Shown: positions 24,060 to 47,022, numbered from the stretch's first letter. The stretch: DNA of 64,000 nucleotides from an archaeon (GCA_018653605.1 JABHYY010000018.1:120413-184412), one strand, 5' to 3'. Notes: generated by a model not told the origin, from the letters alone. Translations and numbers: made by a program.

Positions 24060-25207
24060 TCTAAAACCCTCTCATACACTTCTGCAGTCTTTTTTGCAAC
24101 TCTTTCCCACTCAAACTGAGAATCAGCAATTCTTGCACCTAAAGATAACTTAGTTTGTAATTTTTTATCATTTAATAACTTTATCACACTATGAGCCAAC
24201 TTATTAACATTACCACCCTCAACAACCATAGCATTCTCACCATCTTTCAAAACTTCCATTATACCACCAACATCAGAAACAATAATTGGTTTGTTAAATG
24301 CTAACCCAACCAAAAGAGGACCACTTATAGTTTGTTCAGTGTTATGATAAGGCAAAACCATTATATCAGCCAAATCAAAATACTTGTGAACATCTTTATC
24401 TAAAATGTAATCAGGAAACATCCTAACATACTTTTCAATCCCTTCTAAATCATCTTCATACTCTTGCAAATCTTGCCAAAGTTCACCAGCAACAACCAAC
24501 CTAGCCTTAGGAACCTCTTTAATCACTTCTTTCATTGCCCTCAAAAGATATCTCAAACCTTTATACTCTCTAATATAACCAAAGAACAAAACAACTTGAT
24601 CATCATTTGACAATCCCATTTCCTTTCTCAAATCAGCCTTACTCTCTTTCTTCCACTTAGTAAAATATCCAAAAGTACCATGAGGCACAACATGAACATT
24701 AGAATCCTTAATCCCATAATCACCAACCAACCTTTTCCTATTCTGCTCAGCATGCACAATAAAATGATCAATCTTAGAAAAAACAGCTTTAGTAAAAACT
24801 TTATCAACAGCAGTTGACTCATGTGGCTCAATATTATGACAAGTTAAAACAGTTTTCTTCCTAGCAAAGAATTTATTCAAAACAAGAATCACATACTGCA
24901 AAGGTGTAAGCAAAGGTGAAACCCAATGTAAATGAATCACTTGATTATTTTTCAAAAAATTATAAGCCTTAACCCAAGACAAAGGATTGTACCAAGTTAC
25001 AAAATTATAACTTCTCTTGTAAAACCTAATCCCACTTCTATCTTTTGTAGGCAATTTACCTTTGTAAAAAAATGGAGGATACAATTTATCAAACCCAACC
25101 AACCTATGATCAACATACTCTTTCATAGAATTAGCCAAAAGTATACAGTATTGCACAATCCCACCTTGAAAAGGAGGATTATGCACCAACATTCCAACTC
25201 TAATCAT
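24056..25207 (-). CDS. GT-B glycosyltransferase, family 4-like
   Basis: Paralog of 17397-18509 (VGMLVHNPPFQGGIVQY versus ITVIGPTFPYKGGISHY). GT-B C-terminal domain. Confidence 0.65.
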   Translation of the reverse strand: MIRVGMLVHNPPFQGGIVQYCILLANSMKEYVDHRLVGFDKLYPPFFYKGKLPTKDRSGIRFYKRSYNFVTWYNPLSWVKAYNFLKNNQVIHLHWVSPLLTPLQYVILVLNKFFARKKTVLTCHNIEPHESTAVDKVFTKAVFSKIDHFIVHAEQNRKRLVGDYGIKDSNVHVVPHGTFGYFTKWKKESKADLRKEMGLSNDDQVVLFFGYIREYKGLRYLLRAMKEVIKEVPKARLVVAGELWQDLQEYEDDLEGIEKYVRMFPDYILDKDVHKYFDLADIMVLPYHNTEQTISGPLLVGLAFNKPIIVSDVGGIMEVLKDGENAMVVEGGNVNKLAHSVIKLLNDKKLQTKLSLGARIADSQFEWERVAKKTAEVYERVLE

Positions 25208-26645
25208 CTTTCTTAAACAATATCTTTCCCTTTATAATAGATTTTGCCCCCCTAAAAGTATATTTGAAATCTTCATAATTCTTAATCTTTGCAACTTGCG
25301 ACAACACATAAGATGGCCTTAAGAAAAACTTAGCATGTGCATTACTTACAATATCCTTCATCTCTTCACGAGGGATTATAGTTTTCAACACAGGCCCTGA
25401 AGTCATGTCAAACTTTGAACAATCATTCAAAACATCACTATAAAACCAATCATTCTCAATAGCCTGATCATACATCTCAGAACCAGGATGTGGAAACACT
25501 AACGAATACTGCACAGTGTCAGCTTCTAACTTCAAACCAAAATTAATAGTATTATCCATCTCAGCTTTAGTTTCCCAAGGAAACCCAACCATCAAATTCA
25601 CATGACAAATGATTCCAGCCAACTTAGTTAACTTAACTGCCCTTTCAGTCTGACCAACATCAATTTTTTTATTAGTTTTTTCCAAAGTTCTAGGATTCGC
25701 AGACTCAACACCATAACAAATCAATTTACACCCAGCTTGTTTCATTAACTGCAACATTTCCAAATCAACACAATCAACCCTTCCACTACAACTCCACACA
25801 ATATTAACATCTCTTCTTAAAATCTCATCACAAAACTCAACAACTCTTTTCTTAGAAATATTAAATGTCCCTTCATCAAAAAACACCTCTTCCATCCCAT
25901 ACCTCTTAATCAACCACTCCAACTCATCCACAACATTCTTTGCAGACCTAACCCTCACACTATGCCCATAATACACATGAGGCCAAAGACAAAAAGTACA
26001 CTTGTTAGGACACCCTCTTGCAGCCATCACAAAAGTAAAAGGAAAATTTCTAACATGCCCTTCAATATACCATTCATGTGGAATCAAGTCTCTATCAGGA
26101 AAAGGCAAAGTATCCAAATCCTTGATTAATTCAGCAGGTTCATTATTAACTATATCATCACCATCCATAAAACAAATCCCTTTAACTTTCTTTAAAGATC
26201 TTTTTTTCTTAATTGCATTAACAACATTCAAAGTAGTTTGATCCATCTCACCTTTAATCACAACATCAACTTTACTATTTTCAACAGTTTTTTCAGGGAA
26301 TTTGGTCACATGACTACCAGCCATCAAAACTTTAACATCAAACCTATCTTTAATTTTATTAACAACCTTCAAATCATAAGCATAAGTTGGAGTTGCAGTT
26401 TCAATAAAAATAACATCAGGATCAAAAGCACCAACTTCATCCAAAGTTCTTTTCAAATCAAAATCCTGAATCACAGAATCAATATATTTTACATCATAGC
26501 CATTCTCTTTAAGCAAAGTAGCCACATAACACAACAAAATCGGATATCTATTGGTTTTATCCCCTCTTTTCCTAGGCCACCTATTCTGGCTTCTAAGCCC
26601 ATAACCCTCTCCAGGCCATGGTGGATGCAAAAATAAGATTTTCAT
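25200..26645 (-). CDS. B12-binding-domain radical SAM enzyme (class B)
   Basis: An N-terminal B12-binding Rossmann-like domain (KILFLHPPW..., DVIFIE) followed by a radical SAM core AARGCPNKCTFC. Confidence 0.8.
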   Translation of the reverse strand: MKILFLHPPWPGEGYGLRSQNRWPRKRGDKTNRYPILLCYVATLLKENGYDVKYIDSVIQDFDLKRTLDEVGAFDPDVIFIETATPTYAYDLKVVNKIKDRFDVKVLMAGSHVTKFPEKTVENSKVDVVIKGEMDQTTLNVVNAIKKKRSLKKVKGICFMDGDDIVNNEPAELIKDLDTLPFPDRDLIPHEWYIEGHVRNFPFTFVMAARGCPNKCTFCLWPHVYYGHSVRVRSAKNVVDELEWLIKRYGMEEVFFDEGTFNISKKRVVEFCDEILRRDVNIVWSCSGRVDCVDLEMLQLMKQAGCKLICYGVESANPRTLEKTNKKIDVGQTERAVKLTKLAGIICHVNLMVGFPWETKAEMDNTINFGLKLEADTVQYSLVFPHPGSEMYDQAIENDWFYSDVLNDCSKFDMTSGPVLKTIIPREEMKDIVSNAHAKFFLRPSYVLSQVAKIKNYEDFKYTFRGAKSIIKGKILFKKDD

Positions 26646-26693
26646 TATAGAATTTTATTAATTCCTTCTTTTAAATGTTGCTAATCTCTAGTA

Positions 26694-27095: not shown

Positions 27096-28100
27096 ATGCA
27101 AAAGCTAAAATTAATGGCAAAAACAGGAACAACCATCACAAAAGTAGGCCTAGGCTCAAGAATTCCACTAAGAGTAACTCACATTGTAACAAATGCATGC
27201 AACTTAAGATGTAAATATTGTTATGCAGAATCATTCCAAAAACAAAAAGAAATGTCAACCAAACAAATCATGGACATGATGCTTGAATTCAAAGCAATGG
27301 GCACAAAGATTTGGAAAATTGGAGGTGGCGAACCTCTTCTAAGAAAAGACATTGACAAAATAATCACATTTGGCAAAAAACAAGGGTTCACTATAAACAT
27401 GGACACCAATGGAACACTTGTTAAAAAAAACATTGAAACCTTAAAAAAATTAGACCATGTACAAATTAGCCTTGATGGCCCTGAAGAAGTGCATGATAAA
27501 ATCAGAGGAAAAGGTGTTTACAAACAATGCATAGAAGCTTTTGACTTATTAAACAAAGAGAATGTTAAACCGCTAATCAACTGTGTTATTAGCAAACACA
27601 ACATTGACCACATTGAATACATGTGCGACCTTGCAAAAGAAAAAGACACTTTTATCAATTTTCAACCAGTTGTTCCAGTTACAAAAGATGCAGAACAAGA
27701 ATTTTCAAAAGAAATCATAGAAAAAAAAGTGTTTGACAAGATTTTAGAGTTGAAAAAAACCAATAAACACATTGCAGTTTCAGATGCAAGCCTAAAAAGG
27801 TTCAAAGCATTTTATGAAGGAAAGATTACTAAGTTCCAAAAAAACTGTTTAGCAGGAAAAATATACTGCATTGTTTCGCCACAAGGCAAAGTTGGCAGAT
27901 GCATTGACGAACTTGGAACAAAAAATGTTGATGCTTTAGAACTTGGTTTCAAGAACGCATTTAAAGCACTTTCACAAGACTATTCCTGCGACTGCACTTT
28001 CTGTTGCTACTATGACTTATCAAGAGTTTACTCACTCAACCCAAAGCACAACCTAAGAGCTGCCTTTAATGTCCTTTCTGGCAGATGGGTCTACAACTAA
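27096..28100 (+). CDS. Radical SAM enzyme with a C-terminal SPASM/twitch-like domain
   Basis: CNLRCKYC (CX3CX2C), IGGGEPLL; C-terminal CLAGKIYC...GRC...CDCTFCC. Confidence 0.75.
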   Translation: MQKLKLMAKTGTTITKVGLGSRIPLRVTHIVTNACNLRCKYCYAESFQKQKEMSTKQIMDMMLEFKAMGTKIWKIGGGEPLLRKDIDKIITFGKKQGFTINMDTNGTLVKKNIETLKKLDHVQISLDGPEEVHDKIRGKGVYKQCIEAFDLLNKENVKPLINCVISKHNIDHIEYMCDLAKEKDTFINFQPVVPVTKDAEQEFSKEIIEKKVFDKILELKKTNKHIAVSDASLKRFKAFYEGKITKFQKNCLAGKIYCIVSPQGKVGRCIDELGTKNVDALELGFKNAFKALSQDYSCDCTFCCYYDLSRVYSLNPKHNLRAAFNVLSGRWVYN

Positions 28101-28985
28101 CTTCTTGTAAACCAAAGAAGGCAAACCAACCACCAATTCTGAACTTAACATCAAAACCCTATGCATCAAAGAAACAGTGATAGCTAATGCAGGATCAACA
28201 GAGAAAAATACCAAAGCTCCAACCAGAGTAATATCCCTCACACCCAACCCAGCAGGTGAAAGAGTAACAAACACAAAAAACTGTGAAGCATAAAATAGTA
28301 CTACAGGCAATAGTATCCCCAAGTTCACATCAAAAGCAAACAAAATAAAATAAAAAGCAAAGCCATGCAAAATAGCTAAGATCATGTTTAGAAAAAATGA
28401 ATAGTAAAAAGTCTTAGTTTTTCTGATTCTAGAAAACTGTAAGATTAATTTTTTAATAGCTTTTATTGGAACAAAATAAAATATTTTGGGATAGATTAAG
28501 AAACTAACCATTGTAATCAAAGCTACAAATCCTAAAACTTGCACCCAAACACCATAATCAATCAAAAACAATAAAAAGGTAACTGCGAAAAGACAAGCAG
28601 TCAACAACTCAGCAAAACTTTCAGCAAACATTGAAGAAATCTTTCCATCAAGATGTTTATAATAATCACTGCAAAGCTTGTACTTCATAACATAATTCAT
28701 TCCTTTAGGTGGAATATACTTATACATGTTTGAAATGAAATAAATAATGAACAAATCTGAAAAAGAAACCTCTCTGTTAAATATTTTTATCAAAATTGAC
28801 CACTTAAAGGCGCAAATAGTAACTATGATTAGGAATAAACCAAAAGCATAAGCCAAGTAATTCAAGTTAGCATTCTGTAAAGCATAAACAATAGTAGAAT
28901 AATATTTACTAGCATAGAATATCAAAGCTACAAACAGAGCCACATTCAGGAAATAAAAAAAATACTTAGTAAATGCCTTTTTCAT
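28053..28985 (-). CDS. Flippase-like membrane protein (lysylphosphatidylglycerol-synthase TM region / UPF0104 family)
   Basis: An 8-TM protein with the conserved LSPAGLGVRD motif typical of the LPG_synthase_TM/DUF2156 family that often accompanies GT2 enzymes. Its 3' end overlaps the convergent rSAM gene by 48 nt. Confidence 0.45.
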   Translation of the reverse strand: MKKAFTKYFFYFLNVALFVALIFYASKYYSTIVYALQNANLNYLAYAFGLFLIIVTICAFKWSILIKIFNREVSFSDLFIIYFISNMYKYIPPKGMNYVMKYKLCSDYYKHLDGKISSMFAESFAELLTACLFAVTFLLFLIDYGVWVQVLGFVALITMVSFLIYPKIFYFVPIKAIKKLILQFSRIRKTKTFYYSFFLNMILAILHGFAFYFILFAFDVNLGILLPVVLFYASQFFVFVTLSPAGLGVRDITLVGALVFFSVDPALAITVSLMHRVLMLSSELVVGLPSLVYKKLVVDPSARKDIKGSS

Positions 28986-29059
28986 GTCTAAACTTTATTA
29001 TTTTAGGTTTAAAAGATTTGTGCATAATTCTTATAAACAAAAAACTAAAAAACAATCTA

Positions 29060-30628
29060 ATGAAAAAAGCACTAATCTTTATATTTCTAGCATTAATAGT
29101 ACTAAAACTAATTCTATCTATATTCATCCAAGTACCATTAGGATACTCTGACTCCCTTGCTTACATGCAATCAGCAGGTGACTTTTTTGAAGATAAAAGC
29201 CTGCTAGACCAAGCTGAAAACAAATTTCCCTTCCTTTACCCAATAATAATATCCCCAGCATACTTTTTCAATGACATCCACTTTGGAATCATTCTAATCA
29301 ATGCAATCCTTACCTCAGCAATTCTTTTCCCAGCATACCTTTTTAGTAGAGAATTCCTAAACAAGAAAAAAAGTTTAGCAATAGCATCAATAACAGCACT
29401 GATTCCACCAATCTTCATATTCACATTCATTTTCATGAGCGAAAGCTTGTTTTACACTTTATTCCTATTCACAATATACTTCATTTACAAAGCATTCAAA
29501 GATAACACACTCAAATGGAACATCCTAGCAGGAATTGGAATTGCTTTATGTTTTCAAACAAAAATATTAGCACTATTCTTATTCCCAACAATAATAATTC
29601 TAACAATCCTAAACAGAGAAAAAATATACAACAAAGTAATACTATTATTTACAGCACTAATAGCAACCCTACCATGGATAATTGCAAGAGGAACTTTGTA
29701 TGGTTACAAAATATCAAGTGTGATTGGCTACCCAGACTCAATTGAAGTGAGCAGTGGACTTCACCTAACCTCAAAGTTAACCTGGTTCTTCCTACACATT
29801 GATTACCTAATCATTGCAACAGGAATAATTTTCTTAATCCTAACACTACAAGCAGTAATCCAATACAAACAACTAACACAAAACCAAAAATTGTTAACAC
29901 AAGTAACATTGATTTCAACTTTCTTCCTTTTCCTAATCACAGCAAACCACAGTGGATCATACCAACACTACTATGACTACAGAATTGTTGGTAGATACAT
30001 TGCATGCATTTTTCCATTATTCATACTACTAGGTGCAACAACTTTAACAAAATTCAAAAAAATCTCAAAAACAGCAACCCTAACAACAGCAGGATACATT
30101 GCACTAACAACACCATTTTTACTTTATGACACTTTCTTCCCAATCAACAATTCATCCTGGGCACACATTGGAATTTTAAAATACATCCTACCCTCAACAG
30201 CACTAATTACAATACTTTTAGTAATAGCAACTTTAGTTTTCCTAAAAAACATAAAAATACAAAAATTGTTAACACTAGCAATTATATATTTTTTATTAAT
30301 GTCTTTGTTAAGCACAGCAATCATAATTTATGACACAGAGTACAGGTGGAAACCAACAGAACCAGTACAATTAGGTTTATTCTTTGAAGAAAATAAAGGA
30401 ACAGTACTAATTGATGAAACTTTGACAGAGTTTGAATACAACAAAACAGAAGATCTCACAGATCCCAATGAAAGACAGATTGAAGTAATGGCTTATTGGC
30501 TTGAAGAATATACAATAGGTGAAATAGCAAGCTACCAAGAATATGATTATATTGTAACAAAGCAATCACTTTCATTACCAATAGTTTTTGTCACAGAACA
30601 AGCAACTAAAGTGTATTATAATCCATAG
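29060..30628 (+). CDS. Polytopic membrane protein, GT-C (PMT_2/ArnT-like) glycosyltransferase candidate
   Basis: At least 11 TM helices; a first-loop acidic segment YSDSLAYMQSAGDFFED; a large C-terminal soluble domain. The start is taken at MKKALIF. Confidence 0.4.
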   Translation: MKKALIFIFLALIVLKLILSIFIQVPLGYSDSLAYMQSAGDFFEDKSLLDQAENKFPFLYPIIISPAYFFNDIHFGIILINAILTSAILFPAYLFSREFLNKKKSLAIASITALIPPIFIFTFIFMSESLFYTLFLFTIYFIYKAFKDNTLKWNILAGIGIALCFQTKILALFLFPTIIILTILNREKIYNKVILLFTALIATLPWIIARGTLYGYKISSVIGYPDSIEVSSGLHLTSKLTWFFLHIDYLIIATGIIFLILTLQAVIQYKQLTQNQKLLTQVTLISTFFLFLITANHSGSYQHYYDYRIVGRYIACIFPLFILLGATTLTKFKKISKTATLTTAGYIALTTPFLLYDTFFPINNSSWAHIGILKYILPSTALITILLVIATLVFLKNIKIQKLLTLAIIYFLLMSLLSTAIIIYDTEYRWKPTEPVQLGLFFEENKGTVLIDETLTEFEYNKTEDLTDPNERQIEVMAYWLEEYTIGEIASYQEYDYIVTKQSLSLPIVFVTEQATKVYYNP

Positions 30629-31948: not shown

Positions 31949-31971
31949 AACAATCCATAAACCTTAAAAAA
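31949..31971. promoter_or_regulatory. Partial copy of the repeated promoter module (aacaatccataaaccttaaaaaa) upstream of wzx
   Basis: Its 23 nt are identical to 42593-42615. The TATA-like ttaaaaaa lies ~25 nt upstream of the wzx ATG. Confidence 0.5.
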
Positions 31972-31992
31972 CAATCTTCTATTAACTAAATA

Positions 31993-33465
31993 ATGAAACA
32001 CCCTCTTAGAAACATTGCAAAAGGTGCAGGTATTGTACTCTTTGGAATAATCATCTCAAAATTCTTAGGTTATCTTTACAGAATCATCATTGCAAGGCTT
32101 GGACCAGAAGCCTATGGTGAGCTATCCTTAGGCCTTGCAGTTTTCGGAATTCTAAGCATTGTTTCAATATTAGGTCTGGACATGGGAATTCTCAGATACA
32201 TTTCAATATACAAAAGCAAAAACCAGAATGAACAAATCAAAGGCACAATAACCTTTGCAATGAAAACAACAGTAACAATAGCAATAATACTAGGAACATT
32301 ACTATTCATTTTCGCAAACCAAATATCAACATTTTTCTTTCACACTGAAAACATCACAATCTTAATAAAAATAATAGCATTCGCACTACCATTTGAAGCA
32401 ATTCGAGTTATCACAGTAAACACATTCAAAGCATTCTCAAAAATCCAATACGATGTTTACACAAGAATTTTAACAGAAAACACACTAAAAATAATTTTAA
32501 CCCTAATATTCATACAACTAGGACTGAGTGTAACAGGAGCAATACTAGCTTTCACCCTATCAATAATAATCAGCACAATTTTCTCATTAACAGTATTACA
32601 AACAAAAGTATTCAAACTAACAAACAAAATAAAATCAATCTGCAAAAGAAAAGAAGTTCTGCTATACTCAATCCCATTATTATTCAACTCATTAACAATC
32701 ATGATAATAACTTGGATTGACACCTTAATGCTTGGCTTTTTCAGAACAACAGCAGAAGTTGGTATTTACAACGCAGCAATCCCAACAGCAAAACTAATCT
32801 TAATCCTACCAACAGCAATGATTGGACTTTTCATTCCAACAATCTCAGAATACTTAGACAACAAAACCCAACTAAGAAGACTGTTTTACATAACAACAAA
32901 ATGGATTTTAATAATTAACCTGCTATTCCTTTCACTAGCAATAATTTTCAGCCAAGAACTACTAACCATCCTATTCGGCTCACAATACACAGCAGGTTAC
33001 ATAGCACTAACAATCTTAATCACTGGATATTTCATAAATGGCCTTGTTTACACATCAAGAGACATCTTAATGCTACTCAAAAAAAGCAAAATAATCTTAA
33101 TAGCAACTTTAATAGGCGGTACGCTAAACATAATCTTGAACTACATCCTAATTCCAATATACGGCTTCAATGGCGCAGCAATGGCAACAGCAATATCACT
33201 AATAATCCTAAGCTTAATCCTGTTCATAAAAACAAAAATAAAACTAATAAACTTTAAACTAATCAAAGTATTCATAGTTGGAGCACTGTCAGCTCTATTA
33301 ACATACTACATAATAACATTAATAACAATACAAAACCAAATCTTACTAGTATTAACAGGAACCATTATAATGCTAACAATCTATCCAATAGCATTATACA
33401 TAACAAACAGCTTTGAAAAACAAGACATAACAATAATGAAGACAATCAGAAGCAAGCTAAAATGA
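31993..33465 (+). CDS. wzx: Oligosaccharide/polysaccharide flippase (Wzx, MOP superfamily)
   Basis: A 490-aa protein with ~14 TM helices. The N-terminus NIAKGAGIVLFGIIISKFLGYLYRIIIAR is typical of polysaccharide-biosynthesis flippases. Confidence 0.7.
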   Translation: MKHPLRNIAKGAGIVLFGIIISKFLGYLYRIIIARLGPEAYGELSLGLAVFGILSIVSILGLDMGILRYISIYKSKNQNEQIKGTITFAMKTTVTIAIILGTLLFIFANQISTFFFHTENITILIKIIAFALPFEAIRVITVNTFKAFSKIQYDVYTRILTENTLKIILTLIFIQLGLSVTGAILAFTLSIIISTIFSLTVLQTKVFKLTNKIKSICKRKEVLLYSIPLLFNSLTIMIITWIDTLMLGFFRTTAEVGIYNAAIPTAKLILILPTAMIGLFIPTISEYLDNKTQLRRLFYITTKWILIINLLFLSLAIIFSQELLTILFGSQYTAGYIALTILITGYFINGLVYTSRDILMLLKKSKIILIATLIGGTLNIILNYILIPIYGFNGAAMATAISLIILSLILFIKTKIKLINFKLIKVFIVGALSALLTYYIITLITIQNQILLVLTGTIIMLTIYPIALYITNSFEKQDITIMKTIRSKLK

Positions 33466-35339
33466 ACAAATACACCTATGAGATAAAGAAATCACCTAAA
33501 GCAACACCAATCAAAGCTTACAGATTCTTCAGAAAAAAAGTAGTTCTAAACATAAAAAGCCAATACATCAAATTCAAACCAATAAAAGTAAGTGACCAAG
33601 ACTTTTACAAACTTAACAATGTAAAAACAAAAAAGCAACTAATGCGAAAAATAAACCAAAAATTCCTTTTCATAAACACAATCAAGCTAAGAGATAAAGA
33701 ATTAATAGAAAAAGCAAACAACATTTTAAAAAAACAATACACTTACCTAGGAAAAACATACAAACTCAAAACAATAAACTGGCACCAAGATTTCAACTCA
33801 AAAAAAGTTTGGCCACTAGAACATTTCTCAACAATGCAATATGAAAATCTCAAAGACAACTCAGACATTAAAATTGTATGGGACTTTAACAGATTTCACC
33901 ATTTCCCAATCTTAGGTATAGCATACCAACAAACAAAAAACAAAAAATATGTTAAAGAATTTCAAGAACAAGTTATTAACTGGATAAAAAACAACCCAGT
34001 AGAATTCGGACCAAACTGGCTAACTCCAATGGAAGTTTCAATCAGAGCAATCAACTGGATCTACGCCTACCATCTTTTCAAAGATTGCACTGACATTGAT
34101 GAAAGGTTTTGGAAAGAATACTTCAAACAACTCTACTACAAAGGCAAATACATTAGAAACAACCTAGAATGGAGCCCAAAAAAAGAAAACCATTACATTT
34201 CAGACATTGTAGGCTTATTTTTCATAGGAACCACATTCAAAAACACAGACTTTGGAAAAAAATGGATCATATTTGCAAGAAAAGAACTTGAAAAAGAAAT
34301 AACAAAACAAGTTTCAGAAGATGGAGTAGACTATGAAGCTTCAATCAACTACCACAGACTTGTAACAGAACTATTCATGCTTACATACTTACTTGCACAA
34401 AAAAATAAAATAAAATTAAGTGAAAATTACACAAAAAGATTAGAAAACATGCTTGAATTCATCATGTACTACACAAAACCAAATGGCCAAGCATCAAGAA
34501 TTGGAGACACTGACAATGGCAGAGTGATAGACTTATGGACAGAAGACATCAATGACCATAGAGAACTCCTTTCAATAGGAGCTGTACTTTTCAGTAGAAG
34601 AGATTTCAAACACCATAGCAAAGATAACAAAACCTTACCATGGATAATGGGCTATGATACTTATAAGAAATACAAAACCATGAAAAAAGAAAAAAAAGAA
34701 TTACAATCAAAAACATTCAAACACTATCATATCATGCGAGACAAAGACTTTTTCTTAATGATACACTGTGGAGACATTGGAAGAGCTGGTTTTGGAGGCC
34801 ATGGCCATTGCGACCAACTTAGCTTTGAACTTTACTACAAAAAAGACATTGTAATTGACCCTGGAACTTTTTGCTACACTTCAAATGTAAGACAAAGACA
34901 CTTGTTCAGATCAAGTGCATACCATAACACAGTAAAAGTCAATGGAACTGAAATGGACGAAATAGAAATAGGCAAACCATTCTCAATGCTTTGGAAATCA
35001 AAAGCAAAATGCATCAAATGGGAAACAGGAGAAAAAGATGTTTTTGTTGGCAAACACCAGGGTTTTGACCCACACACTCACCTAAGAAGAATCATTTATG
35101 ACAAAAAAAGAAAAGAGGTCTTAATTACAGACAAAGTTACAAAATTCCCCAAAAGATTAGAGATAAACTTTCACATAGACAACAAAGACTTCAAAAAAGC
35201 AATAACAAGTAGTGTCAAACTAAAACCAATCAAAGGCTGGAAATCAGATTCATATGGAGTTAGAAAACCTTCAACAATTCTACAAGCAAAAACAGGTGAA
35301 ATTGAAATAACCACAATTATCAACCTACAAAAAGCTTAA
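33462..35339 (+). CDS. Heparinase II/III-like (alginate-lyase-fold) protein
   Basis: NWHQDF...WDFNRFHHF...GPNWLTPMEVSIRAINWIYAYHLF matches the conserved W/NW...E.SIR..NW core of Hepar_II_III-family proteins found in glycan loci. Its start overlaps the wzx stop. Confidence 0.5.
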   Translation: MNKYTYEIKKSPKATPIKAYRFFRKKVVLNIKSQYIKFKPIKVSDQDFYKLNNVKTKKQLMRKINQKFLFINTIKLRDKELIEKANNILKKQYTYLGKTYKLKTINWHQDFNSKKVWPLEHFSTMQYENLKDNSDIKIVWDFNRFHHFPILGIAYQQTKNKKYVKEFQEQVINWIKNNPVEFGPNWLTPMEVSIRAINWIYAYHLFKDCTDIDERFWKEYFKQLYYKGKYIRNNLEWSPKKENHYISDIVGLFFIGTTFKNTDFGKKWIIFARKELEKEITKQVSEDGVDYEASINYHRLVTELFMLTYLLAQKNKIKLSENYTKRLENMLEFIMYYTKPNGQASRIGDTDNGRVIDLWTEDINDHRELLSIGAVLFSRRDFKHHSKDNKTLPWIMGYDTYKKYKTMKKEKKELQSKTFKHYHIMRDKDFFLMIHCGDIGRAGFGGHGHCDQLSFELYYKKDIVIDPGTFCYTSNVRQRHLFRSSAYHNTVKVNGTEMDEIEIGKPFSMLWKSKAKCIKWETGEKDVFVGKHQGFDPHTHLRRIIYDKKRKEVLITDKVTKFPKRLEINFHIDNKDFKKAITSSVKLKPIKGWKSDSYGVRKPSTILQAKTGEIEITTIINLQKA

Positions 35340-36820: not shown

Positions 36821-37345
36821 ATGGCAAGAGTAATAATACCAAAAACATGGGTTCCAATTGATGGACCCTTTGTATATCTAGCAGGACCTATTAGAGGTGC
36901 ACCAAATTGGCAAGATGAAGCTGTAAAATATCTTGTTTCACAAAAACAAGATATTACTATTATTTCACCAAGAAGAGAGATTAGAGAAGCCATTGAACGA
37001 TATGTTGTAAAAGGAGAAGAAGGTGCATTTGATAGACAAAGAAAATGGGAAAGGCAATACATGGACATGGCTATGATTGGAGGACAAGGGGTAATTATGT
37101 TTTGGCTACCAGGTGAAACTAATCATTTATGTCAAAAACCATATGGTGCAATGACAAGGTTTGAACTTGGATATGTATTAGCAAACCATAGAAATGACAG
37201 ATCAGCAAAATTTTGTATAGGAAGTGATGGAAATTTTCCTGAATTAAGAACTATAGAGGTTGATTTGAGTATAGATTCACCTTTAACAACAGTTTATGAA
37301 ACTTTAGAAGCAACTTGTTATAAAGCATTAAATTTAATGAAATGA
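36821..37345 (+). CDS. Nucleoside 2-deoxyribosyltransferase-like protein (NDT/Rcl/BlsM-type N-glycosidase fold)
   Basis: FVYLAGPIRGAPNW...VIMFWLPGE...GAMTRFELGYVLAN is the hallmark VYLAGP N-terminus with a conserved Glu in the flavodoxin-like fold. Confidence 0.5.
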   Translation: MARVIIPKTWVPIDGPFVYLAGPIRGAPNWQDEAVKYLVSQKQDITIISPRREIREAIERYVVKGEEGAFDRQRKWERQYMDMAMIGGQGVIMFWLPGETNHLCQKPYGAMTRFELGYVLANHRNDRSAKFCIGSDGNFPELRTIEVDLSIDSPLTTVYETLEATCYKALNLMK

Positions 37346-38356
37346 AATTCTATCAACATCCATACTTTCCATATTAGATGGACAATCAGAACACAACTTA
37401 ATTCTCATCTTATCTCTTAAAATCTGTGTTCTAAAAGCAACAAACTTTTCATTATTCCAAACAGACATAAATCCACCATCAGAAACATTACCAAACTTAA
37501 AATGTTCAAAAGCATCAAAACAACAAGGAACAACATTACCATCATAATTAATACTAGCTCCAACCCACAACCCATCACACCCATTAACAATGTTTTTCTT
37601 ATAACTCAACTTCCCATCAACAATCCTATACCTAGAATACTTTTCATTAGGTAAAAACTCTTTAGCTCGATCCTCATTCCCAAAAAGAAAAACAGTTTTC
37701 AAAATCAACTCATTCACACCTAGCTCTTTAGCCAATTTCTTAATATCCTCAATCTGATCCTCATTCTGCTTCATAACAATAAACTGCATTGAAACAAAAG
37801 GAAAATACCTATCACCTTTCTCTTTAGCCAACAACTTCAACCCTTTCAAATTAGCATTAAAATCACAATTCCCTCTATACTTCAAATAAGTTTTCTCATC
37901 AACACCATCAATAGCAACAATCAACTCATCCAACCCAGAATCAATAATTTTTTTAACATTATCCATATCCCTAAAAGCAACTCCATTTGTACTTGTAATG
38001 ACTTTCAACCCTTTTTTCTTAGCCAACTTAATCATTTGAATCAAATTCTTATTCAAAAAAGGCTCACCATAATTCCACAAAGTCACAGAAAATGCAGTAT
38101 CACCCAACTCATCCAACAACTTTTTGTACTCCTTAATTCCCATAACACCTTGCTTCTTAGTTAACTTTCCATTACCTCTAGGACAAAGACAACACTTAGC
38201 ATTACAAATATTAGTAGGCTCAATAAACAAAGAAAGAGGCTTACCCCAAACTTTAGGCCTTTTCAATTTCAAAGACAAATGCACTAAAAAGTAATTCCAC
38301 ATTCTTTTCAAAGTTAAATTCTTTGAATAAATCCTAAATTTCTTGACTAAACTCAT
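37334..38356 (-). CDS. Radical SAM enzyme with a C-terminal SPASM-like domain
   Basis: CNAKCCLC (CX3CX2C); C-terminal CDGLW...GNVVPCCFD...CSDCP cluster. Confidence 0.75.
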   Translation of the reverse strand: MSLVKKFRIYSKNLTLKRMWNYFLVHLSLKLKRPKVWGKPLSLFIEPTNICNAKCCLCPRGNGKLTKKQGVMGIKEYKKLLDELGDTAFSVTLWNYGEPFLNKNLIQMIKLAKKKGLKVITSTNGVAFRDMDNVKKIIDSGLDELIVAIDGVDEKTYLKYRGNCDFNANLKGLKLLAKEKGDRYFPFVSMQFIVMKQNEDQIEDIKKLAKELGVNELILKTVFLFGNEDRAKEFLPNEKYSRYRIVDGKLSYKKNIVNGCDGLWVGASINYDGNVVPCCFDAFEHFKFGNVSDGGFMSVWNNEKFVAFRTQILRDKMRIKLCSDCPSNMESMDVDRISFH

Positions 38357-39782: not shown

Positions 39783-39829
39783 AAACCTTAAAAAATAAAC
39801 TCCAATTTATAAAACCTATGGAACAACAA
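39778..39829. promoter_or_regulatory. 52-nt repeated divergent-promoter module, copy A
   Basis: tccataaaccttaaaaaataaactccaatttataaaacctatggaacaacaa is identical to 42601-42652. It carries TATA-like boxes in both orientations and includes a relic ATG GAA CAA CAA start of a methyltransferase gene. Confidence 0.7.
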
Positions 39830-42600: not shown

Positions 42601-42652
42601 TCCATAAACCTTAAAAAATAAACTCCAATTTATAAAACCTATGGAACAACAA
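42601..42652. promoter_or_regulatory. 52-nt repeated divergent-promoter module, copy B
   Basis: Identical to 39778-39829. The TATA-like ttaaaaaataaa lies ~25 nt upstream of the methyltransferase ATG at 42641. Confidence 0.7.
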
Positions 42653-43306
42653 GATTTCGAAGAAAATTACTTCACAAACTACAAAGAACAAACTTTCAGA
42701 TGGAAATTTTGGAGCAATTACATAAAAAATAATTTTCAAGGTCCAATCCTAGAAATTGGTTGCTCTTATGGTTTTCTGTACAAATACCTAAAAGATTACA
42801 CAGGTATAGACATTTCAAAACATGCAATAAAGATAGCACAAAAACAAAACAAAGACAAATTCTCAGTAATGGACGCAGAAAAACTTGATTTCAAAGACAA
42901 CCAATTCAACTTAATCCTAACCTTAGACTTACTAGAACACCTAAACAACCCAGAAGAGTGTATCAAAGAATGTGCAAGAGTACTAAAAAATAAAGGATCA
43001 ATAATAATTAGCACTCCAAACCCAGAATCAAAAAGTAAAAGAGTAAAAGGAAAAAACTGGTTTGCAAACAAAGACAAAACACATGTTTCAATTCACAATG
43101 CAAACTACTGGATAAAACTTCTAAGAAAACACAATTTTGTAGTCACAGTCAACAAAACAATAGATCTGTTTGACTTCCCCTACTTCAACAAACTATTCAT
43201 ACTAATCAACCTAATCCTATACAAGATAAACAAACCTTTTTTAAAAAAATCAGGTGACAACTTAGTAATAATTGCTAAGATCGATAAAACTTCTCAAACT
43301 CAGTAA
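42641..43306 (+). CDS. Class I SAM-dependent methyltransferase
   Basis: Motif I ILEIGCSYGFLYKYL; D-I-S; LILTLDLLEHL. Confidence 0.7.
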   Translation: MEQQDFEENYFTNYKEQTFRWKFWSNYIKNNFQGPILEIGCSYGFLYKYLKDYTGIDISKHAIKIAQKQNKDKFSVMDAEKLDFKDNQFNLILTLDLLEHLNNPEECIKECARVLKNKGSIIISTPNPESKSKRVKGKNWFANKDKTHVSIHNANYWIKLLRKHNFVVTVNKTIDLFDFPYFNKLFILINLILYKINKPFLKKSGDNLVIIAKIDKTSQTQ

Positions 43307-44506: not shown

Positions 44507-45649
44507 ATGAGAATAGCTATAGTTAGTCAGTTCTTCCTACCAACAATTGGTGGAGTAGAAAAGGTAATTGAAGTTCTAGCAAAAGAATACATTAAACAAG
44601 GCCACACAGTAGATGTTTTCACTTCAGACACTGACAAATACAAAAGAATAAAGAAAAAGTTTGAAATAATTGATGGTATAAGAATTCACAGATCAAGATA
44701 CATAGCAAAACTATCATTCAACACATACATATTCCCAGGAGTGTTTCTAAAACTACTAAAACATGACTTTGATGTAATCCACACACATGTTGGAGCAAGA
44801 GATTATGTTTTATACGCAGGTTTGATTGCAAAATATAAGAAAAAACCACACATTCACACAACACACTGCCCATGGACAGACAAGTTCAGACCACTAGCAG
44901 TAAGAATACCATTATTTTTCACAGACAAAATATTCAACTACATCTCATTCAACCTTTGCAACAAAATAATTGCAATCACACCCTGGGAAGTTCCAATCCT
45001 AAAAAAATGGGTTAAAGAAGAAAAAATAAAAGTTCTACACAATGGAATGGAAGGTTCTTTATTCAAAAAAATAAAAAATAATCCTTTCAGAAAACAAATC
45101 ATGAATGATCCAAAGAAAAAATTAGTTCTATTCTTTGGAAGACTACACCCAACAAAATCACCTCACCACTTTGCACAAGTTGCAAAAGAAATACTTGATG
45201 AAAGATGTGATATTGAATTTGCAATGATCGGTCCTGATGAAGGTATGATGGGCCAAGTTAAAGAAGTTGCAAACAATCACCCAGACATTCATATTATAGG
45301 CCCTTGGCCATATGAAAAAATTGGACAAATGTACCAAGGTTCAGACCTTTATGTTTTAACTTCATACAGAGAAGGTCTGCCACTAACTCTATTCGAAGCA
45401 ATGGCATCAGAACTACCAGTTGTTTCAACCCCAGTGAATGGAATTTCATATGAAATGGAAGATGGTGTCAATGGCTACCTTTATCCACATGGTGACTTAA
45501 AACAACTCAAAGAAAAAATATTGAAAGTTATAGAAAATCCAGACTTAGCAAAAAAATTCTCACAAAACAACATCAAAAAAGTTAAAGAATACACCTGGGA
45601 AAACATTGCAAACGAAACACTCAAAATATACAGGGAAGAAATGAAATGA
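44507..45649 (+). CDS. GT-B glycosyltransferase, family 4
   Basis: N-terminus IVSQFFLPTIGGVE; C-terminal SYREGLPLTLFEAMASELPVVSTPVNG. Confidence 0.75.
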   Translation: MRIAIVSQFFLPTIGGVEKVIEVLAKEYIKQGHTVDVFTSDTDKYKRIKKKFEIIDGIRIHRSRYIAKLSFNTYIFPGVFLKLLKHDFDVIHTHVGARDYVLYAGLIAKYKKKPHIHTTHCPWTDKFRPLAVRIPLFFTDKIFNYISFNLCNKIIAITPWEVPILKKWVKEEKIKVLHNGMEGSLFKKIKNNPFRKQIMNDPKKKLVLFFGRLHPTKSPHHFAQVAKEILDERCDIEFAMIGPDEGMMGQVKEVANNHPDIHIIGPWPYEKIGQMYQGSDLYVLTSYREGLPLTLFEAMASELPVVSTPVNGISYEMEDGVNGYLYPHGDLKQLKEKILKVIENPDLAKKFSQNNIKKVKEYTWENIANETLKIYREEMK

Positions 45650-47022
45650 AAGTATTACTAGTCTACCCAAACATTGTAGAATCACCTAAAGACATGTCTA
45701 TTGGACTAGGTATCATATCAGCTATGTTAAAAGAAAAAGGACACAAAGTTGAACTAATTGACACAACTTTCAAAGTTTCAGATGACGAAATCATAGACAA
45801 AGTTGACCAATTCAACCCAGACCTAGTTGCAGTCACTGCAGCAACCAATGACCTTCAAAACGCAATAAGAATCTCACAGATAATCAAAGAAACTAAAGAA
45901 GTACCAATCATCTGTGGTGGTTACCATGCAACTGTTGCACCAAAAGACATCATAGACCAAGATTGCTTTGACATGGTTGCAATTGGAGAATCAGAACAAT
46001 CACTAATCAAACTAACAAAAGATCTAAACAACACTAAAATTCCAAACATCTGGTTCAAAAAAGGTAAAAAGATAACAAAAAATGAAATAGGAAAACTAAC
46101 TGAAGATCTAGACAAACTCCCTTTCCCAGACAGAGAAATATTCAACTACCAAAAATACATTGACTCAAACAGAGGCTTAGCAACTTTCATGTCAAGCAAA
46201 GGTTGCCCTTTCTTATGTTCATATTGTATAAACAAAGTTTTGATTGACAAATACAAAGGAAAAGGAAAATTCCTAAGATTCAGATCAATTGACAATTTAA
46301 TGAAAGAAATGAAAGAAGTCATAACAAAATACAAAGTTAAAGAAATTGAATTCTACGACGACACTTTCACTATAAACAAACAAAGACTAAGAGATTTCGC
46401 AAAAAGATATCCAAAAGAAATTGGACTACCATTCTACATTAATGCAAGAGTAAACGCAGTAACAAAAGAAGATTTCAAACTATTGAAAGAAGCAGGATGT
46501 GTAAGAGTATCAATTGGAATCGAAGCAGGCGACCCATACATAAGAAATGACATTCTAAAAAGGTTTCAAAGCAACAAACAAATCATTGACACTTTTCAAT
46601 GGGCAAAAGAAGAAGGACTAAGAACATACTCATTCAACATGATAGGAGTTCCATTTGAAACACAAGAAAGCATAAAAAAAACAATTGAACTCAACAGAAA
46701 AGTTCAACCTGACTATGTAGGAATTTCCATTTTCAATGCATTCAAAGGAACAGAACTGTACGACATATGCAAAAAGAACAAATGGCTAAAGGACAAAGCA
46801 TCAGCATCATACTTCCAATCAAGTAATGTTAACCATCCAAACTTCACAATAAAAGAACTAAAGAAAATAAGAGACAGTTTCGGATTCGAAGTTTACAAAA
46901 ATGCAGACAAAAAAAGAGCATACATTGACTTGATAGACAAAAAACTAACAAAAGTCCCTTTATACACAAAAACAAGATCTTTACTAATAGAAAAAGGGAT
47001 TAAAAAACTCATAGAAAAATGA
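45646..47022 (+). CDS. B12-binding-domain radical SAM enzyme (class B)
   Basis: A B12-binding N-terminal domain followed by SSKGCPFLCSYC. Confidence 0.8.
   Translation: MKVLLVYPNIVESPKDMSIGLGIISAMLKEKGHKVELIDTTFKVSDDEIIDKVDQFNPDLVAVTAATNDLQNAIRISQIIKETKEVPIICGGYHATVAPKDIIDQDCFDMVAIGESEQSLIKLTKDLNNTKIPNIWFKKGKKITKNEIGKLTEDLDKLPFPDREIFNYQKYIDSNRGLATFMSSKGCPFLCSYCINKVLIDKYKGKGKFLRFRSIDNLMKEMKEVITKYKVKEIEFYDDTFTINKQRLRDFAKRYPKEIGLPFYINARVNAVTKEDFKLLKEAGCVRVSIGIEAGDPYIRNDILKRFQSNKQIIDTFQWAKEEGLRTYSFNMIGVPFETQESIKKTIELNRKVQPDYVGISIFNAFKGTELYDICKKNKWLKDKASASYFQSSNVNHPNFTIKELKKIRDSFGFEVYKNADKKRAYIDLIDKKLTKVPLYTKTRSLLIEKGIKKLIEK

What the first reader, a model, noticed from the sequence alone, without database searches (positions are those of the whole stretch)
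25200..47022. Three paralogous B12-binding radical SAM genes, each beside a glycosyltransferase
The genes at 25200-26645, 35356-36819 and 45646-47022 all show an N-terminal cobalamin-binding domain plus a CX3CX2C core (GCPNKCTFC, GCPFSCVYC, GCPFLCSYC). Each is adjacent to or coupled with a GT4 or GT2 gene, or with Wzx/heparinase-like genes. Class B radical SAM enzymes typically methylate unactivated carbon or phosphorus centres. Archaeal class B members also include the tetraether-lipid ring synthases (GrsA/B). In a glycan locus they would predict C-methylated or otherwise radical-modified sugars. Three copies suggest either several modifications or duplication-driven diversification, which fits the duplicated promoter modules seen nearby.
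Basis: partly seen in the sequence, partly recalled or inferred. Interest (0 to 1): 0.55.

Follow-up and report, generated by a model that had tools for sequence, protein, structure and literature searches.

The report
Three old radical-SAM genes in glycan island
An uncultivated marine archaeon's cell-surface sugar-building gene island holds three distantly related radical SAM enzymes with a vitamin B12-type domain, each joined to a glycosyltransferase gene; they probably modify sugars by radical chemistry, but which reaction each performs is unknown.

Summary
ORFs 25200-26645(-), 35365-36819(+) and 45646-47022(+) each have a Pfam B12-binding domain, a Radical_SAM domain and a CX3CX2C motif. 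Each sits in its own tightly packed operon with glycosyltransferase or glycan-export genes.

"Paralogous by duplication" does not hold. The three are only 28-29% identical. Each belongs to a separate, widespread family, with orthologues at 62-75% identity in other Woesearchaeota/Nanoarchaeota genomes. For rSAM1, relatives at about 42% identity also occur in bacteria.

None reaches the cutoff of any curated family.
- rSAM1 is closest to HpnJ, the putative sugar ring-contraction enzyme of hopanoid synthesis (290 bits against a 578-bit cutoff, aligned end to end).
- rSAM2 and rSAM3 lie about equally far from methylating and non-methylating members.

The cobalamin-binding motifs are present and conserved in all three families. 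The predicted folds match solved class B enzymes, but match the cobalamin-free AprD4 equally well.

Gene neighbourhoods recur across phyla: GT2/GT4, a dolichyl-phosphate-sugar-synthase-like GT2, a flippase-like protein, a GT-C, DUF362 iron-sulfur proteins and further radical SAM genes.

Best reading: these are glycan-tailoring class B radical SAM enzymes. Whether they C-methylate or rearrange the sugar is unresolved. They are new members of a known kind, of moderate interest.

The parts
25200..26645 (-). rSAM1: class B-type radical SAM, 481 aa, HpnJ-like. First enzyme gene of a five-gene operon.
   Evidence: Pfam B12-binding plus Radical_SAM. HpnJ model 290 bits end to end, cutoff 578. AF2 model pLDDT 90.2. 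Foldseek top hits TsrM, MgmA, AprD4, OxsB.
24056..25207 (-). GT4 glycosyltransferase; overlaps the rSAM1 gene by 8 nt.
   Evidence: Pfam Glycos_transf_1 and Glyco_transf_4. A 58% orthologue lies in the Woesearchaeota module L006.
22860..24059 (-). Radical SAM without a B12 domain, 399 aa, weak SPASM/twitch end; same operon.
   Evidence: 57% orthologue in L006.
21767..22891 (-). DUF362 fused to a 2x[4Fe-4S] ferredoxin domain; candidate electron donor for the operon's radical SAM enzymes (inferred).
   Evidence: Pfam DUF362 175.8 bits plus Fer4 families.
20643..21770 (-). Radical SAM without a B12 domain, 375 aa; last gene of the operon.
   Evidence: 66% orthologue in L006.
27096..28100 (+). Radical SAM without a B12 domain, 334 aa; divergent from the rSAM1 operon.
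   Evidence: 61% orthologue in L006.
28053..28985 (-). Flippase-like membrane protein (LPG_synthase_TM / TIGR00374).
   Evidence: Pfam 74.6 bits. TIGR00374 61.2 bits, cutoff 43.2. Lies next to the rSAM1 orthologue in L006.
28973..30628 (+). GT-C glycosyltransferase (PMT_2), which would use a polyprenyl-phosphate sugar donor.
   Evidence: PMT_2 recurs beside homologues of rSAM1 and rSAM2.
16443..17372 (+). GT2 resembling dolichyl/polyprenyl-phosphate hexose synthases.
   Evidence: Best NCBIfam matches are AglJ, Dol-P-hexose transferase, PgfS, PpgS and ArnC, all below cutoff. Its 59% orthologue sits two genes upstream of the rSAM1 orthologue in L006.
31993..33465 (+). Wzx-type flippase; first gene of the rSAM2 operon.
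   Evidence: Pfam Polysacc_synt.
33462..35339 (+). Heparinase II/III-like protein.
   Evidence: Pfam Hepar_II_III_N and _C. Also found beside an rSAM2 homologue in L094.
35365..36819 (+). rSAM2: class B-type radical SAM, 484 aa counted from the ATG.
   Evidence: Public gene call of 484 aa.
36821..37345 (+). 174-aa protein resembling nucleoside 2-deoxyribosyltransferase; starts 1 nt after rSAM2 ends.
   Evidence: Pfam PF15891, 34.9 bits.
37334..38356 (-). Radical SAM/SPASM protein, 340 aa.
44507..45649 (+). GT4 glycosyltransferase; overlaps rSAM3 by 4 nt.
   Evidence: A GT4 lies directly upstream of 15 of 30 close rSAM3 homologues.
45646..47022 (+). rSAM3: class B-type radical SAM, 458 aa; family well conserved in DPANN archaea.
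   Evidence: AF2 model pLDDT 91.6. Foldseek top hits AprD4, MgmA, TsrM, OxsB.
47019..47906 (+). GT2 glycosyltransferase; overlaps rSAM3 by 4 nt and is its conserved partner.
   Evidence: An orthologue (46-71% identity) lies directly downstream on the same strand in 23 of 31 rSAM3 homologues with at least 55% identity, and in 0 of 28 below that.

Best explanation
The three genes encode genuine class B-type radical SAM enzymes: an N-terminal Rossmann cobalamin-binding domain followed by a CX3CX2C partial TIM barrel. They lie in a surface-glycan island of about 39 kb (roughly 8.9-47.9 kb of the window) in an uncultivated marine DPANN archaeon of the Woesearchaeota/Nanoarchaeota type. They represent three old, separate orthologous families rather than local duplicates, and each is transcribed with its own glycosyltransferase partners.

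Most likely mechanism (inferred from established class B chemistry, not shown here):
1. The reduced [4Fe-4S] cluster cleaves SAM to give a 5'-deoxyadenosyl radical.
2. The radical abstracts a hydrogen from an unactivated carbon of a sugar. That sugar has just been added by the adjacent glycosyltransferase to a lipid-linked (dolichyl-phosphate) intermediate.
3. The cobalamin cofactor then either donates a methyl group, giving a C-methyl branched sugar, or supports a skeletal rearrangement of the sugar radical.

For rSAM1 the nearest characterised relative is HpnJ, which is genetically linked to ring contraction of a lipid-bound glucosamine. rSAM1 also belongs to a conserved Woesearchaeal module with a Dol-P-hexose-synthase-like GT2, a flippase-like protein and, in this window but not found in L006, a GT-C transferase. 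A modified single sugar carried on dolichyl phosphate and transferred outside the cell is therefore the favoured picture. rSAM3 would act between the GT4 and GT2 steps of its three-gene unit. The DUF362-ferredoxin fusion in the rSAM1 operon is the probable electron donor.

My estimates: glycan tailoring 0.7; at least one of the three is a C-methylase 0.5; rSAM1 is a non-methylating, HpnJ-like rearrangement enzyme 0.35.
For: Architecture:
- Pfam domains above cutoff.
- The cobalamin motifs defined in PMC9204698 are present and at least 90% conserved within each family. These are an S/T motif on the beta3 loop, GG-x-H on beta4 (A-G-x-H in rSAM1) and GE at alpha5.
- AF2 models have pLDDT 90-92 and match TsrM, MgmA, OxsB, CysS and TokK at TM 0.65-0.73.

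Separate families:
- 28-29% pairwise identity; hhalign between family profiles gives 27%.
- All 360 homologues best-hit their own window protein.

Glycan role:
- Start/stop overlaps of 4-8 nt with GT genes.
- L006 (Woesearchaeota B3_Woes) keeps orthologues of rSAM1, both GT4s, the Dol-P-synthase-like GT2, the flippase-like gene and three radical SAM genes without a B12 domain.
- Bacterial rSAM1 relatives at about 40% identity mostly have a GT2 directly upstream and a GT4 downstream, and one has PMT_2, DUF362 and Wzx nearby.
- rSAM2 homologues sit next to GT4, PMT/PMT_2, DUF362, a heparinase-like gene and Wzx.
- The rSAM3-GT2 pair is kept in 23 of 31 close homologues.

Other:
- HpnJ proximity: 290 bits, end to end.
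- Archaeal origin: PCNA and TFS genes; best named homologues are Woese-, Pace- and Nanoarchaeota; NCBI labels the protein 'archaeon'.
Against: - No biochemical data exist for any member of the three families. No paper on them was found.
- No curated family cutoff is reached, so the reaction type cannot be transferred from any known enzyme.
- Fold and sequence match the cobalamin-free AprD4 as well as true cobalamin enzymes.
- DPANN archaea are generally thought unable to make cobalamin (general knowledge), and the window has no corrinoid uptake or salvage gene.
- A lipid-linked rather than nucleotide-linked substrate is inferred only from neighbouring genes.
- No HpnK-type deacetylase or hopanoid gene is present. 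The HpnJ reaction itself rests on genetics only (PMC13459092).
Confidence: 0.6

Rival explanations
1. All three are cobalamin-dependent sugar C-methyltransferases, like GenK, GenD1 and MoeK5. The glycan would then carry several C-methyl branched sugars.
For: Most characterised class B enzymes are methylases (review PMC12931638). rSAM2's top curated match, ApyD, is a C-beta methylase. The rSAM1 family has C-x3-C-x2-C-L-W, with the Trp at the position of TokK Trp215, which is conserved in TokK-type methylases. The cobalamin motifs are conserved.
Against: The best curated matches for rSAM1 and rSAM3 are the non-methylating HpnJ and BchE. No reference model for GenK, GenD1 or MoeK5 was available to test. 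Three ordinary class I SAM methyltransferases are already in the island (13692-14318, 15776-16462, 42641-43306), although those would not methylate unactivated carbon.
Confidence: 0.3
2. One or more of the three are cobalamin-independent enzymes with a degenerate Rossmann domain, like AprD4. They would dehydrate or deoxygenate a sugar diol rather than use B12.
For: AprD4 (6fd2) is the best solved-structure match by sequence for rSAM1 and rSAM3 and the top fold hit for rSAM3. AprD4 acts on a sugar and does not bind cobalamin (PMC12931638). A B12-free enzyme would suit a reduced-genome DPANN organism.
Against: The sequence match to AprD4 and to its NCBIfam model covers only the radical SAM core (query residues ~150-405) and reaches 80-105 bits against a 500-bit cutoff. 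The N-terminal domains pass the Pfam B12-binding threshold. They keep GG-x-H (A-G-x-H in rSAM1), GE and the beta3-loop S/T motif at 90% conservation or more.
Confidence: 0.12
3. They modify membrane lipids or the dolichol carrier, for example by Grs-like cyclisation or isoprenoid methylation, rather than sugars.
For: GrsA/B, HpnP/R, the ladderane enzyme and HpnJ are lipid-pathway members of class B (PMC13459092). The TIGR04072 lipid model scores 125-137 bits.
Against: All are far below cutoff (360 for TIGR04072). No lipid-synthesis gene is in the window. Every examined neighbourhood is dominated by glycosyltransferases. DPANN archaea mostly lack lipid synthesis (general knowledge).
Confidence: 0.06
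4. They modify proteins or peptides after translation, as ApyD, MgmA and PoyC do. Possible targets are the giant surface proteins encoded downstream or an unrecognised small precursor peptide.
For: The ApyD, MgmA and rSAM_ocin_1 models score 60-180 bits. MgmA (9ccb) is a top structural match. Large surface proteins are encoded at 47949-63926.
Against: All are below cutoff. No RRE domain, protease, ABC exporter or obvious precursor gene is present. Coupling to GT genes is conserved in many genomes.
Confidence: 0.05

Closest known systems
HpnJ (TIGR03471), the hopanoid-associated class B radical SAM
   Same: rSAM1 aligns end to end with the HpnJ model (residues 1-469 against model positions 1-462 of 472), and HpnJ is its best curated match. 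HpnJ follows a GT2 gene (HpnI) and is thought to act on a lipid-bound sugar. rSAM1 orthologues likewise mostly follow a GT2.
   Different: The score is half the family cutoff (290 against 578). The host is an archaeon, and no hopanoid, HpnK or squalene-hopene cyclase gene is present. The rSAM1 orthologue group has its own signature, an N-terminal GYGxRSQNR loop and CxxCLW, which its wider set of HpnJ-scoring relatives lacks. rSAM2 and rSAM3 score only 171 and 156 bits.
Sugar-modifying class B methylases (GenK, GenD1, Fms7, MoeK5)
   Same: Same two-domain architecture, with a sugar as the likely substrate. MoeK5 acts in a lipid-linked phosphoglycolipid pathway (my own knowledge; these enzymes are listed as Csp3-methyltransferases in PMC12931638).
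   Different: Those enzymes belong to antibiotic pathways of actinomycetes. Sequence relatedness could not be tested here because no reference models were available.
AprD4 (PDB 6fd2), a radical SAM 1,2-diol dehydratase
   Same: Best PDB match by sequence for rSAM1 and rSAM3 and a top fold match for both modelled proteins (TM 0.72-0.73). It acts on a sugar (paromamine).
   Different: AprD4 binds no cobalamin. The similarity is confined to the radical SAM core. The window proteins keep the cobalamin-binding motifs. The NF033070 cutoff is not met (80-105 bits against 500).
Structurally solved cobalamin radical SAM enzymes (TsrM, MgmA/QCMT, OxsB, TokK, CysS)
   Same: Same fold (Foldseek probability 1.0, TM 0.65-0.73), the same GG and GE motifs, and a base-off type Rossmann domain.
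   Different: Sequence identity is 14-20%. The substrates differ (tryptophan, an MCR glutamine, a nucleotide, carbapenem and cystobactamid intermediates). The window proteins have only a short helical C-terminal region, not the larger cap domains of TokK and OxsB.
Three-part lipid-linked sugar systems (Gtr, or ArnC/ArnT with ArnD modifying the sugar on the lipid)
   Same: The window holds a polyprenyl-phosphate sugar synthase-like GT2, a flippase-like protein and a GT-C, together with an enzyme that could modify the sugar while it is on the carrier. The first two also lie beside the rSAM1 orthologue in L006, and PMT_2 lies beside a bacterial rSAM1 relative.
   Different: The modifying enzyme would be a radical SAM rather than a hydrolase. 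This analogy rests on gene content only.

Membership tests
Class B (cobalamin-dependent) radical SAM enzymes | CX3CX2C cluster motif in a radical SAM partial TIM barrel | tested here: met
   The motifs are seen in the translations. PF04055 scores 77-93 bits. The Cys triad is invariant in all three family alignments. The models show the barrel.
Class B (cobalamin-dependent) radical SAM enzymes | N-terminal Rossmann-type cobalamin-binding domain | tested here: met
   PF02310 scores 55.6, 67.6 and 75.1 bits against a 32.1-bit cutoff. The predicted beta-alpha Rossmann domain spans residues ~2-146 in rSAM1 and ~2-125 in rSAM3.
Class B (cobalamin-dependent) radical SAM enzymes | Cobalamin-contacting motifs: S/T motif on the beta3 loop, Gly-Gly on beta4, Gly-Glu at alpha5 (PMC9204698) | tested here: met
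   rSAM1 has ETATP, AGSH and KGE. rSAM2 has FTITS, GGAH and GEGE. rSAM3 has VTAATN, GGYH and GESE. The key residues are at least 90% conserved within each family (criteria).
Class B (cobalamin-dependent) radical SAM enzymes | Actual binding of and dependence on cobalamin | not testable with these tools
   This needs purified protein. The fold search cannot separate true binders from AprD4.
HpnJ (TIGR03471) | Score at or above the equivalog cutoff of 577.6 bits | tested here: not met
   290.4, 170.9 and 155.9 bits. The bacterial relative P0078 scores 298 bits. Ten further relatives score at most 340 bits, two of them below the listing threshold.
HpnJ (TIGR03471) | Hopanoid gene context (hpnI, hpnK, hpnH, squalene-hopene cyclase) | tested here: not met
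   No such family appears in the ORFs scanned, which cover nearly all ORFs of 100 aa or more in the window. The host is an archaeon.
BchE (TIGR02026) | Score at or above 481 bits | tested here: not met
   201.7, 177.5 and 132.4 bits.
AprD4 family (NF033070) | Score at or above 500 bits with a full-length alignment | tested here: not met
   105, 80.9 and 79.6 bits, covering the radical SAM core only.
MgmA/QCMT (TIGR04014) | Score at or above 360 bits | tested here: not met
   122.6, 122.6 and 68.6 bits.
Sugar C-methylases GenK, GenD1, MoeK5, Fom3 | Phylogenetic grouping with characterised members | not tested
   No reference sequences or models for these enzymes could be reached with the tools.
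GDGT ring synthases GrsA/GrsB | Orthology to Saci_1585 and Saci_0240, and a tetraether-lipid context | not tested
   No reference sequence was available. The context here is glycan, not lipid.

The most novel reading that the evidence does not exclude
The conserved Woesearchaeal module makes a skeletally rearranged sugar on a dolichyl-phosphate carrier and transfers it to the cell surface. The product could be a carbocyclic, cyclitol-type sugar, as HpnJ and calditol synthase are thought to make on lipids. The module comprises a Dol-P-hexose-synthase-like GT2, a flippase-like protein, an HpnJ-like class B radical SAM, three further radical SAM enzymes and two GT4s; this window adds a GT-C transferase and a DUF362-ferredoxin fusion. 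This would be a new kind of archaeal surface glycosylation. It would also make the envelope of these reduced-genome symbionts depend on cobalamin scavenged from hosts or the community.
Probability: 0.12. Interest if true: 0.8.

Novelty: new member of a known kind. Interest (0 to 1): 0.45.

Why it matters
Class B radical SAM enzymes are known mainly from antibiotic, cofactor, chlorophyll, lipid and methyl-coenzyme M reductase pathways. Here three uncharacterised families are tied by conserved gene order to cell-surface glycan assembly. The association occurs in DPANN archaea and, for related families, in CPR bacteria, Omnitrophota, Desulfobacterota, Anaerolineae and Asgard archaea.

If they are active, some of the smallest known genomes spend several oxygen-sensitive, cofactor-expensive enzymes on decorating their surface. 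These organisms probably cannot make cobalamin themselves. That points to unusual sugars that may matter for host attachment, and to a vitamin dependency.

The rSAM3-GT2 pair, usually preceded by a GT4, and the rSAM1 module are compact, well-defined targets for heterologous reconstitution.

Tried and rejected
- tRNA and Rfam scans of the window found nothing.
- Literature searches combining B12/radical SAM with DPANN, Woesearchaeota, Nanoarchaeota or polysaccharide gene clusters found no description of these families.
- The calditol synthase paper (PMC6305003) is not held, so I could not check whether Cds is class B or related to rSAM1.
- I looked for a true HpnJ among GTDB relatives to compare motifs directly. 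None of ten candidates reached the cutoff.
- Fold searches against the PDB could not tell cobalamin-binding enzymes from AprD4-like ones.
- The 104-aa ORF upstream of rSAM1 and the 174-aa ORF downstream of rSAM2 are unrelated to each other.
- Recent tandem duplication is rejected by the identity values and by reciprocal best hits.
- I considered that the duplicated 52-nt promoter-like module drives the three genes. It does not. Its copies lie upstream of Wzx and of the methyltransferase at 42641, and at the junction around 39.8 kb.
- RiPP and lipid readings are kept only as low-probability rivals.
- Not used: the one protein-representative search and the third fold search. Neither library carries annotation that would settle the reaction type.

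Full report

Yes. ORFs lie at 25200-26645 (-, 481 aa), 35356-36819 (+) and 45646-47022 (+, 458 aa). Their translations carry RGCPNKCTFC, RGCPFSCVYC and KGCPFLCSYC.

All three pass Pfam thresholds for the B12-binding domain (55.6, 67.6 and 75.1 bits; cutoff 32.1) and for Radical_SAM (76.7-92.7 bits; cutoff 29.5).

The second gene probably starts at the ATG at 35365, giving 484 aa. Public gene calls on identical contigs use that start.

The stated neighbours are correct:
- rSAM1 overlaps a GT4 gene (24056-25207) by 8 nt.
- rSAM3 overlaps a GT4 (44507-45649) and a GT2 (47019-47906) by 4 nt each.
- rSAM2 follows Wzx (31993-33465) and a heparinase II/III-like gene (33462-35339). A 174-aa gene starts 1 nt after it ends.

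**2. The surroundings**

The window comes from an archaeon. It encodes PCNA (4001-4759) and a TFS/TFIIS-type factor (5185-5502). NCBI holds the identical proteins as 'radical SAM protein [archaeon]'. The closest named homologues are from Woesearchaeota, Pacearchaeota and Nanoarchaeota genomes. GC content is about 32%. The source is most likely a marine DPANN archaeon.

The three genes lie in a glycan island running from about 8.9 to 47.9 kb. The island contains:
- an AglH/WecA-type initiating transferase;
- a sugar nucleotidyltransferase, a 4,6-dehydratase and an SDR epimerase/reductase;
- several GT2 and GT4 genes;
- three ordinary SAM methyltransferases;
- a Wzx flippase, a flippase-like TIGR00374 protein and a GT-C (PMT_2).

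The region also holds four radical SAM genes without a B12 domain and three DUF362 genes, one fused to a 2x[4Fe-4S] ferredoxin.

Immediately downstream are very large probable surface proteins: 1451 aa, 379 aa, and 3464 aa with eight LamG-type domains.

rSAM1 heads a five-gene operon whose genes overlap one another: rSAM1, GT4, radical SAM, DUF362-ferredoxin, radical SAM.

**3. Are they paralogues made by duplication?**

No. Pairwise identity is 28%, 28% and 29%, and profile-profile identity between two of the families is 27%.

Each protein has its own family.

| Protein | Closest homologues | Wider distribution |
|---|---|---|
| rSAM1 | 60-74% in DPANN genomes | about 42% in Desulfobacterota, Syntrophobacter and Anaerolineae |
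| rSAM3 | more than 120 clusters at 52-75%; every named one is archaeal | not seen outside archaea among named hits |
| rSAM2 | a looser family at 35-53% | DPANN, Omnitrophota, Chloroflexi |

All 360 retrieved homologues are closer to 'their' window protein than to the other two. The three are old lineages that were brought together.

**4. Is the B12 domain credible?**

The review PMC9204698 defines the contacts seen in OxsB, TsrM and TokK: an S/T motif on the beta3 loop, Gly-Gly on beta4 and Gly-Glu at the start of alpha5.

A merged alignment of the three families shows all three motifs in each protein.

| Protein | beta3 loop | beta4 | alpha5 |
|---|---|---|---|
| rSAM1 | ETATP | AGSH | KGE |
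| rSAM2 | FTITS | GGAH | GEGE |
| rSAM3 | VTAATN | GGYH | GESE |

The key residues are invariant or at least 90% conserved within each family.

AlphaFold models of rSAM1 (pLDDT 90.2) and rSAM3 (pLDDT 91.6) show the Rossmann domain followed by the barrel. They match TsrM, MgmA (9ccb), OxsB, CysS and TokK at TM 0.65-0.73.

The caveat is that AprD4, which has a related domain but binds no cobalamin (PMC12931638), matches just as well by fold. It is also the best PDB match by sequence for rSAM1 and rSAM3. That sequence match covers only the radical SAM core. Cobalamin binding is therefore likely but not shown.

The three proteins differ in the beta1-alpha1 loop. It is about 27 residues long in rSAM1 and carries an invariant PPWxGxGxGxRSxxR signature. 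In rSAM3 it is about 11 residues.

The rSAM1 orthologue group alone has that loop signature together with CxxCLW. The Trp sits where TokK has Trp215.

**5. Which known family?**

None of the 18,950 NCBIfam models is matched at its cutoff.
- **rSAM1:** HpnJ 290 bits end to end (cutoff 578), then BchE 202 and ApyD 170.
- **rSAM2:** ApyD 180, BchE 177, HpnJ 171, and the P-methylases Sden_1168 and PhpK at 166 and 156.
- **rSAM3:** HpnJ 156, BchE 132, the ladderane-lipid enzyme 125 and PhpK 124.

HpnJ and BchE do not methylate (PMC9204698). ApyD is a C-beta methylase (PMC10635010).

Only rSAM1 has a clear nearest relative. It is a sister of HpnJ, not HpnJ itself. Bacterial relatives also score only about 210-340 bits where they score at all, and there is no hopanoid context.

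**6. Evidence from neighbourhoods**

*rSAM1.* In Woesearchaeota B3_Woes (L006) the rSAM1 orthologue (62%) lies directly after a flippase-like gene and a GT2 that is 59% identical to the window's GT2 at 16443. The same locus carries orthologues of both GT4s (48% and 58%) and of three of the radical SAM genes without a B12 domain (57-66%).

That GT2 best matches AglJ, Dol-P-hexose transferase, PpgS and ArnC. These are polyprenyl-phosphate sugar synthases, and all the matches are below cutoff.

In a bacterial relative at 42% identity (L007) the gene overlaps an upstream GT2. It is surrounded by another AglJ-like GT2, PMT_2, DUF362, GT4, a radical SAM/SPASM gene and Wzx.

Among the GTDB loci with at least 39% identity, a GT2 directly upstream and/or a GT4 directly downstream is the rule.

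*rSAM2.* Homologues have a GT4 directly upstream, with PMT/PMT_2, DUF362, GT2 and methyltransferase genes nearby. One locus (L094) repeats nearly the whole gene set of the window in another order.

*rSAM3.* Among homologues with at least 55% identity, a GT2 orthologous to 47019-47906 lies directly downstream on the same strand in 23 of 31 loci. A GT4 is adjacent upstream in 15 of 30. Below 55% identity the GT2 pairing is absent (0 of 28).

*Arrays.* More distant relatives often form arrays of two to six class B genes mixed with GT2 genes. These occur in CPR bacteria, DPANN, Omnitrophota, Elusimicrobia, Asgard and Bathyarchaeia.

**7. Most likely mechanism**

The architecture and the conserved linkage to glycan genes are shown. 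The rest is inferred from established class B chemistry.

The reduced cluster cleaves SAM. The 5'-deoxyadenosyl radical removes a hydrogen from a sugar carbon. Cobalamin then either delivers a methyl group or supports a rearrangement.

The partner genes suggest that the sugar sits on a dolichyl-phosphate carrier. rSAM1's module would modify a single carried sugar before it is flipped and then transferred by the GT-C enzyme. rSAM3 would act between the GT4 and GT2 steps of its three-gene unit. The DUF362-ferredoxin fusion is a plausible electron donor.

I cannot decide between C-methylation and rearrangement. I give 0.5 that at least one of the three is a methylase and 0.35 that rSAM1 is a non-methylating, HpnJ-like enzyme.

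**8. Rivals**

- All three are methylases: 0.30.
- Cobalamin-free, AprD4-like dehydratases: 0.12.
- Lipid modification: 0.06.
- Protein or peptide modification: 0.05.

**9. Novelty and score**

No paper describing these families was found. They are new, uncharacterised members of a known enzyme class, in a setting (cell-surface glycan assembly of DPANN archaea) where that class has not been studied.

This is a good lead for enzyme discovery, and it raises a question about vitamin dependency. But nothing in the sequence is outside what class B enzymes are known to look like. Interest: 0.45.

Noticed in passing
window 39778-39829, 42601-42652, 31949-31990: A perfect 52-nt direct repeat has a third copy at 83% identity. 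It contains a TATA-like CCTTAAAAAA box about 20-25 nt before an ATG. The copies lie just upstream of the methyltransferase gene (42641) and of Wzx (31993), and at the junction between the 913-aa ORF and the GT4 at 38706-39782. It looks like a reused archaeal promoter plus start module for leaderless transcripts.
   Followed up: partly
window 18506-19573, 19564-20646, 21767-22891: There are three DUF362 genes. The first two are tandem copies (178 nt at 71% identity). The third is fused to a 2x[4Fe-4S] ferredoxin domain inside the rSAM1 operon. DUF362 also recurs beside class B radical SAM genes in unrelated genomes (L007, L093, L094, L116, L117, L128).
   Followed up: partly
window 20643-21770, 22860-24059, 27096-28100, 37334-38356: Four further radical SAM genes without a B12 domain bring the total to seven in about 27 kb. 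None reaches any NCBIfam cutoff. Three of them have 57-66% orthologues in the Woesearchaeota locus L006.
   Followed up: partly
window 39816-42557: A 913-aa ORF with no Pfam match contains about seven tandem copies of a ~102-nt (34-aa) repeat at 41585-42439.
   Followed up: no
window 47949-52304 and 53532-63926: Two very large ORFs lie on the minus strand. One is 1451 aa with no Pfam match; it has a CT-rich low-complexity stretch (48596-49033) and an internal 300-nt repeat. The other is 3464 aa with eight LamG/ConA-like domains plus sialidase-N and toxin receptor-binding-like domains. These are probable surface proteins and possible targets of the glycosylation.
   Followed up: no
window 1-64000: The plus strand has more C than G in nearly every 2-kb window (GC skew mostly -0.1 to -0.6), and in most windows more A than T, whichever strand the genes are on. 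This suggests a strand-wide mutational bias on top of coding bias.
   Followed up: no
window 8952-13186: An AglH/WecA-type initiating transferase, an SDR epimerase/reductase, an NDP-sugar 4,6-dehydratase, a sugar nucleotidyltransferase and a GT2 lie here. This is a 6-deoxyhexose-type nucleotide-sugar pathway at the left edge of the island.
   Followed up: no
L012 1498-12002; L029; L044: Other uncultivated genomes carry arrays of five or six class B radical SAM genes within about 12 kb, mixed with GT2 and GT4 genes. In L012 an amine-oxidase/phytoene-desaturase-like gene is also present.
   Followed up: partly
L009 10001-11699: Reverse-transcriptase (RVT_1) genes lie directly downstream of the GT4, rSAM3-like and radical SAM/SPASM unit in a Woesearchaeota contig. 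A phage-type integrase lies upstream in the sister contigs L010 and L011.
   Followed up: no
window 27096-28100 and 28053-28985: The radical SAM gene on the plus strand and the flippase-like gene on the minus strand converge and overlap by 48 nt.
   Followed up: no
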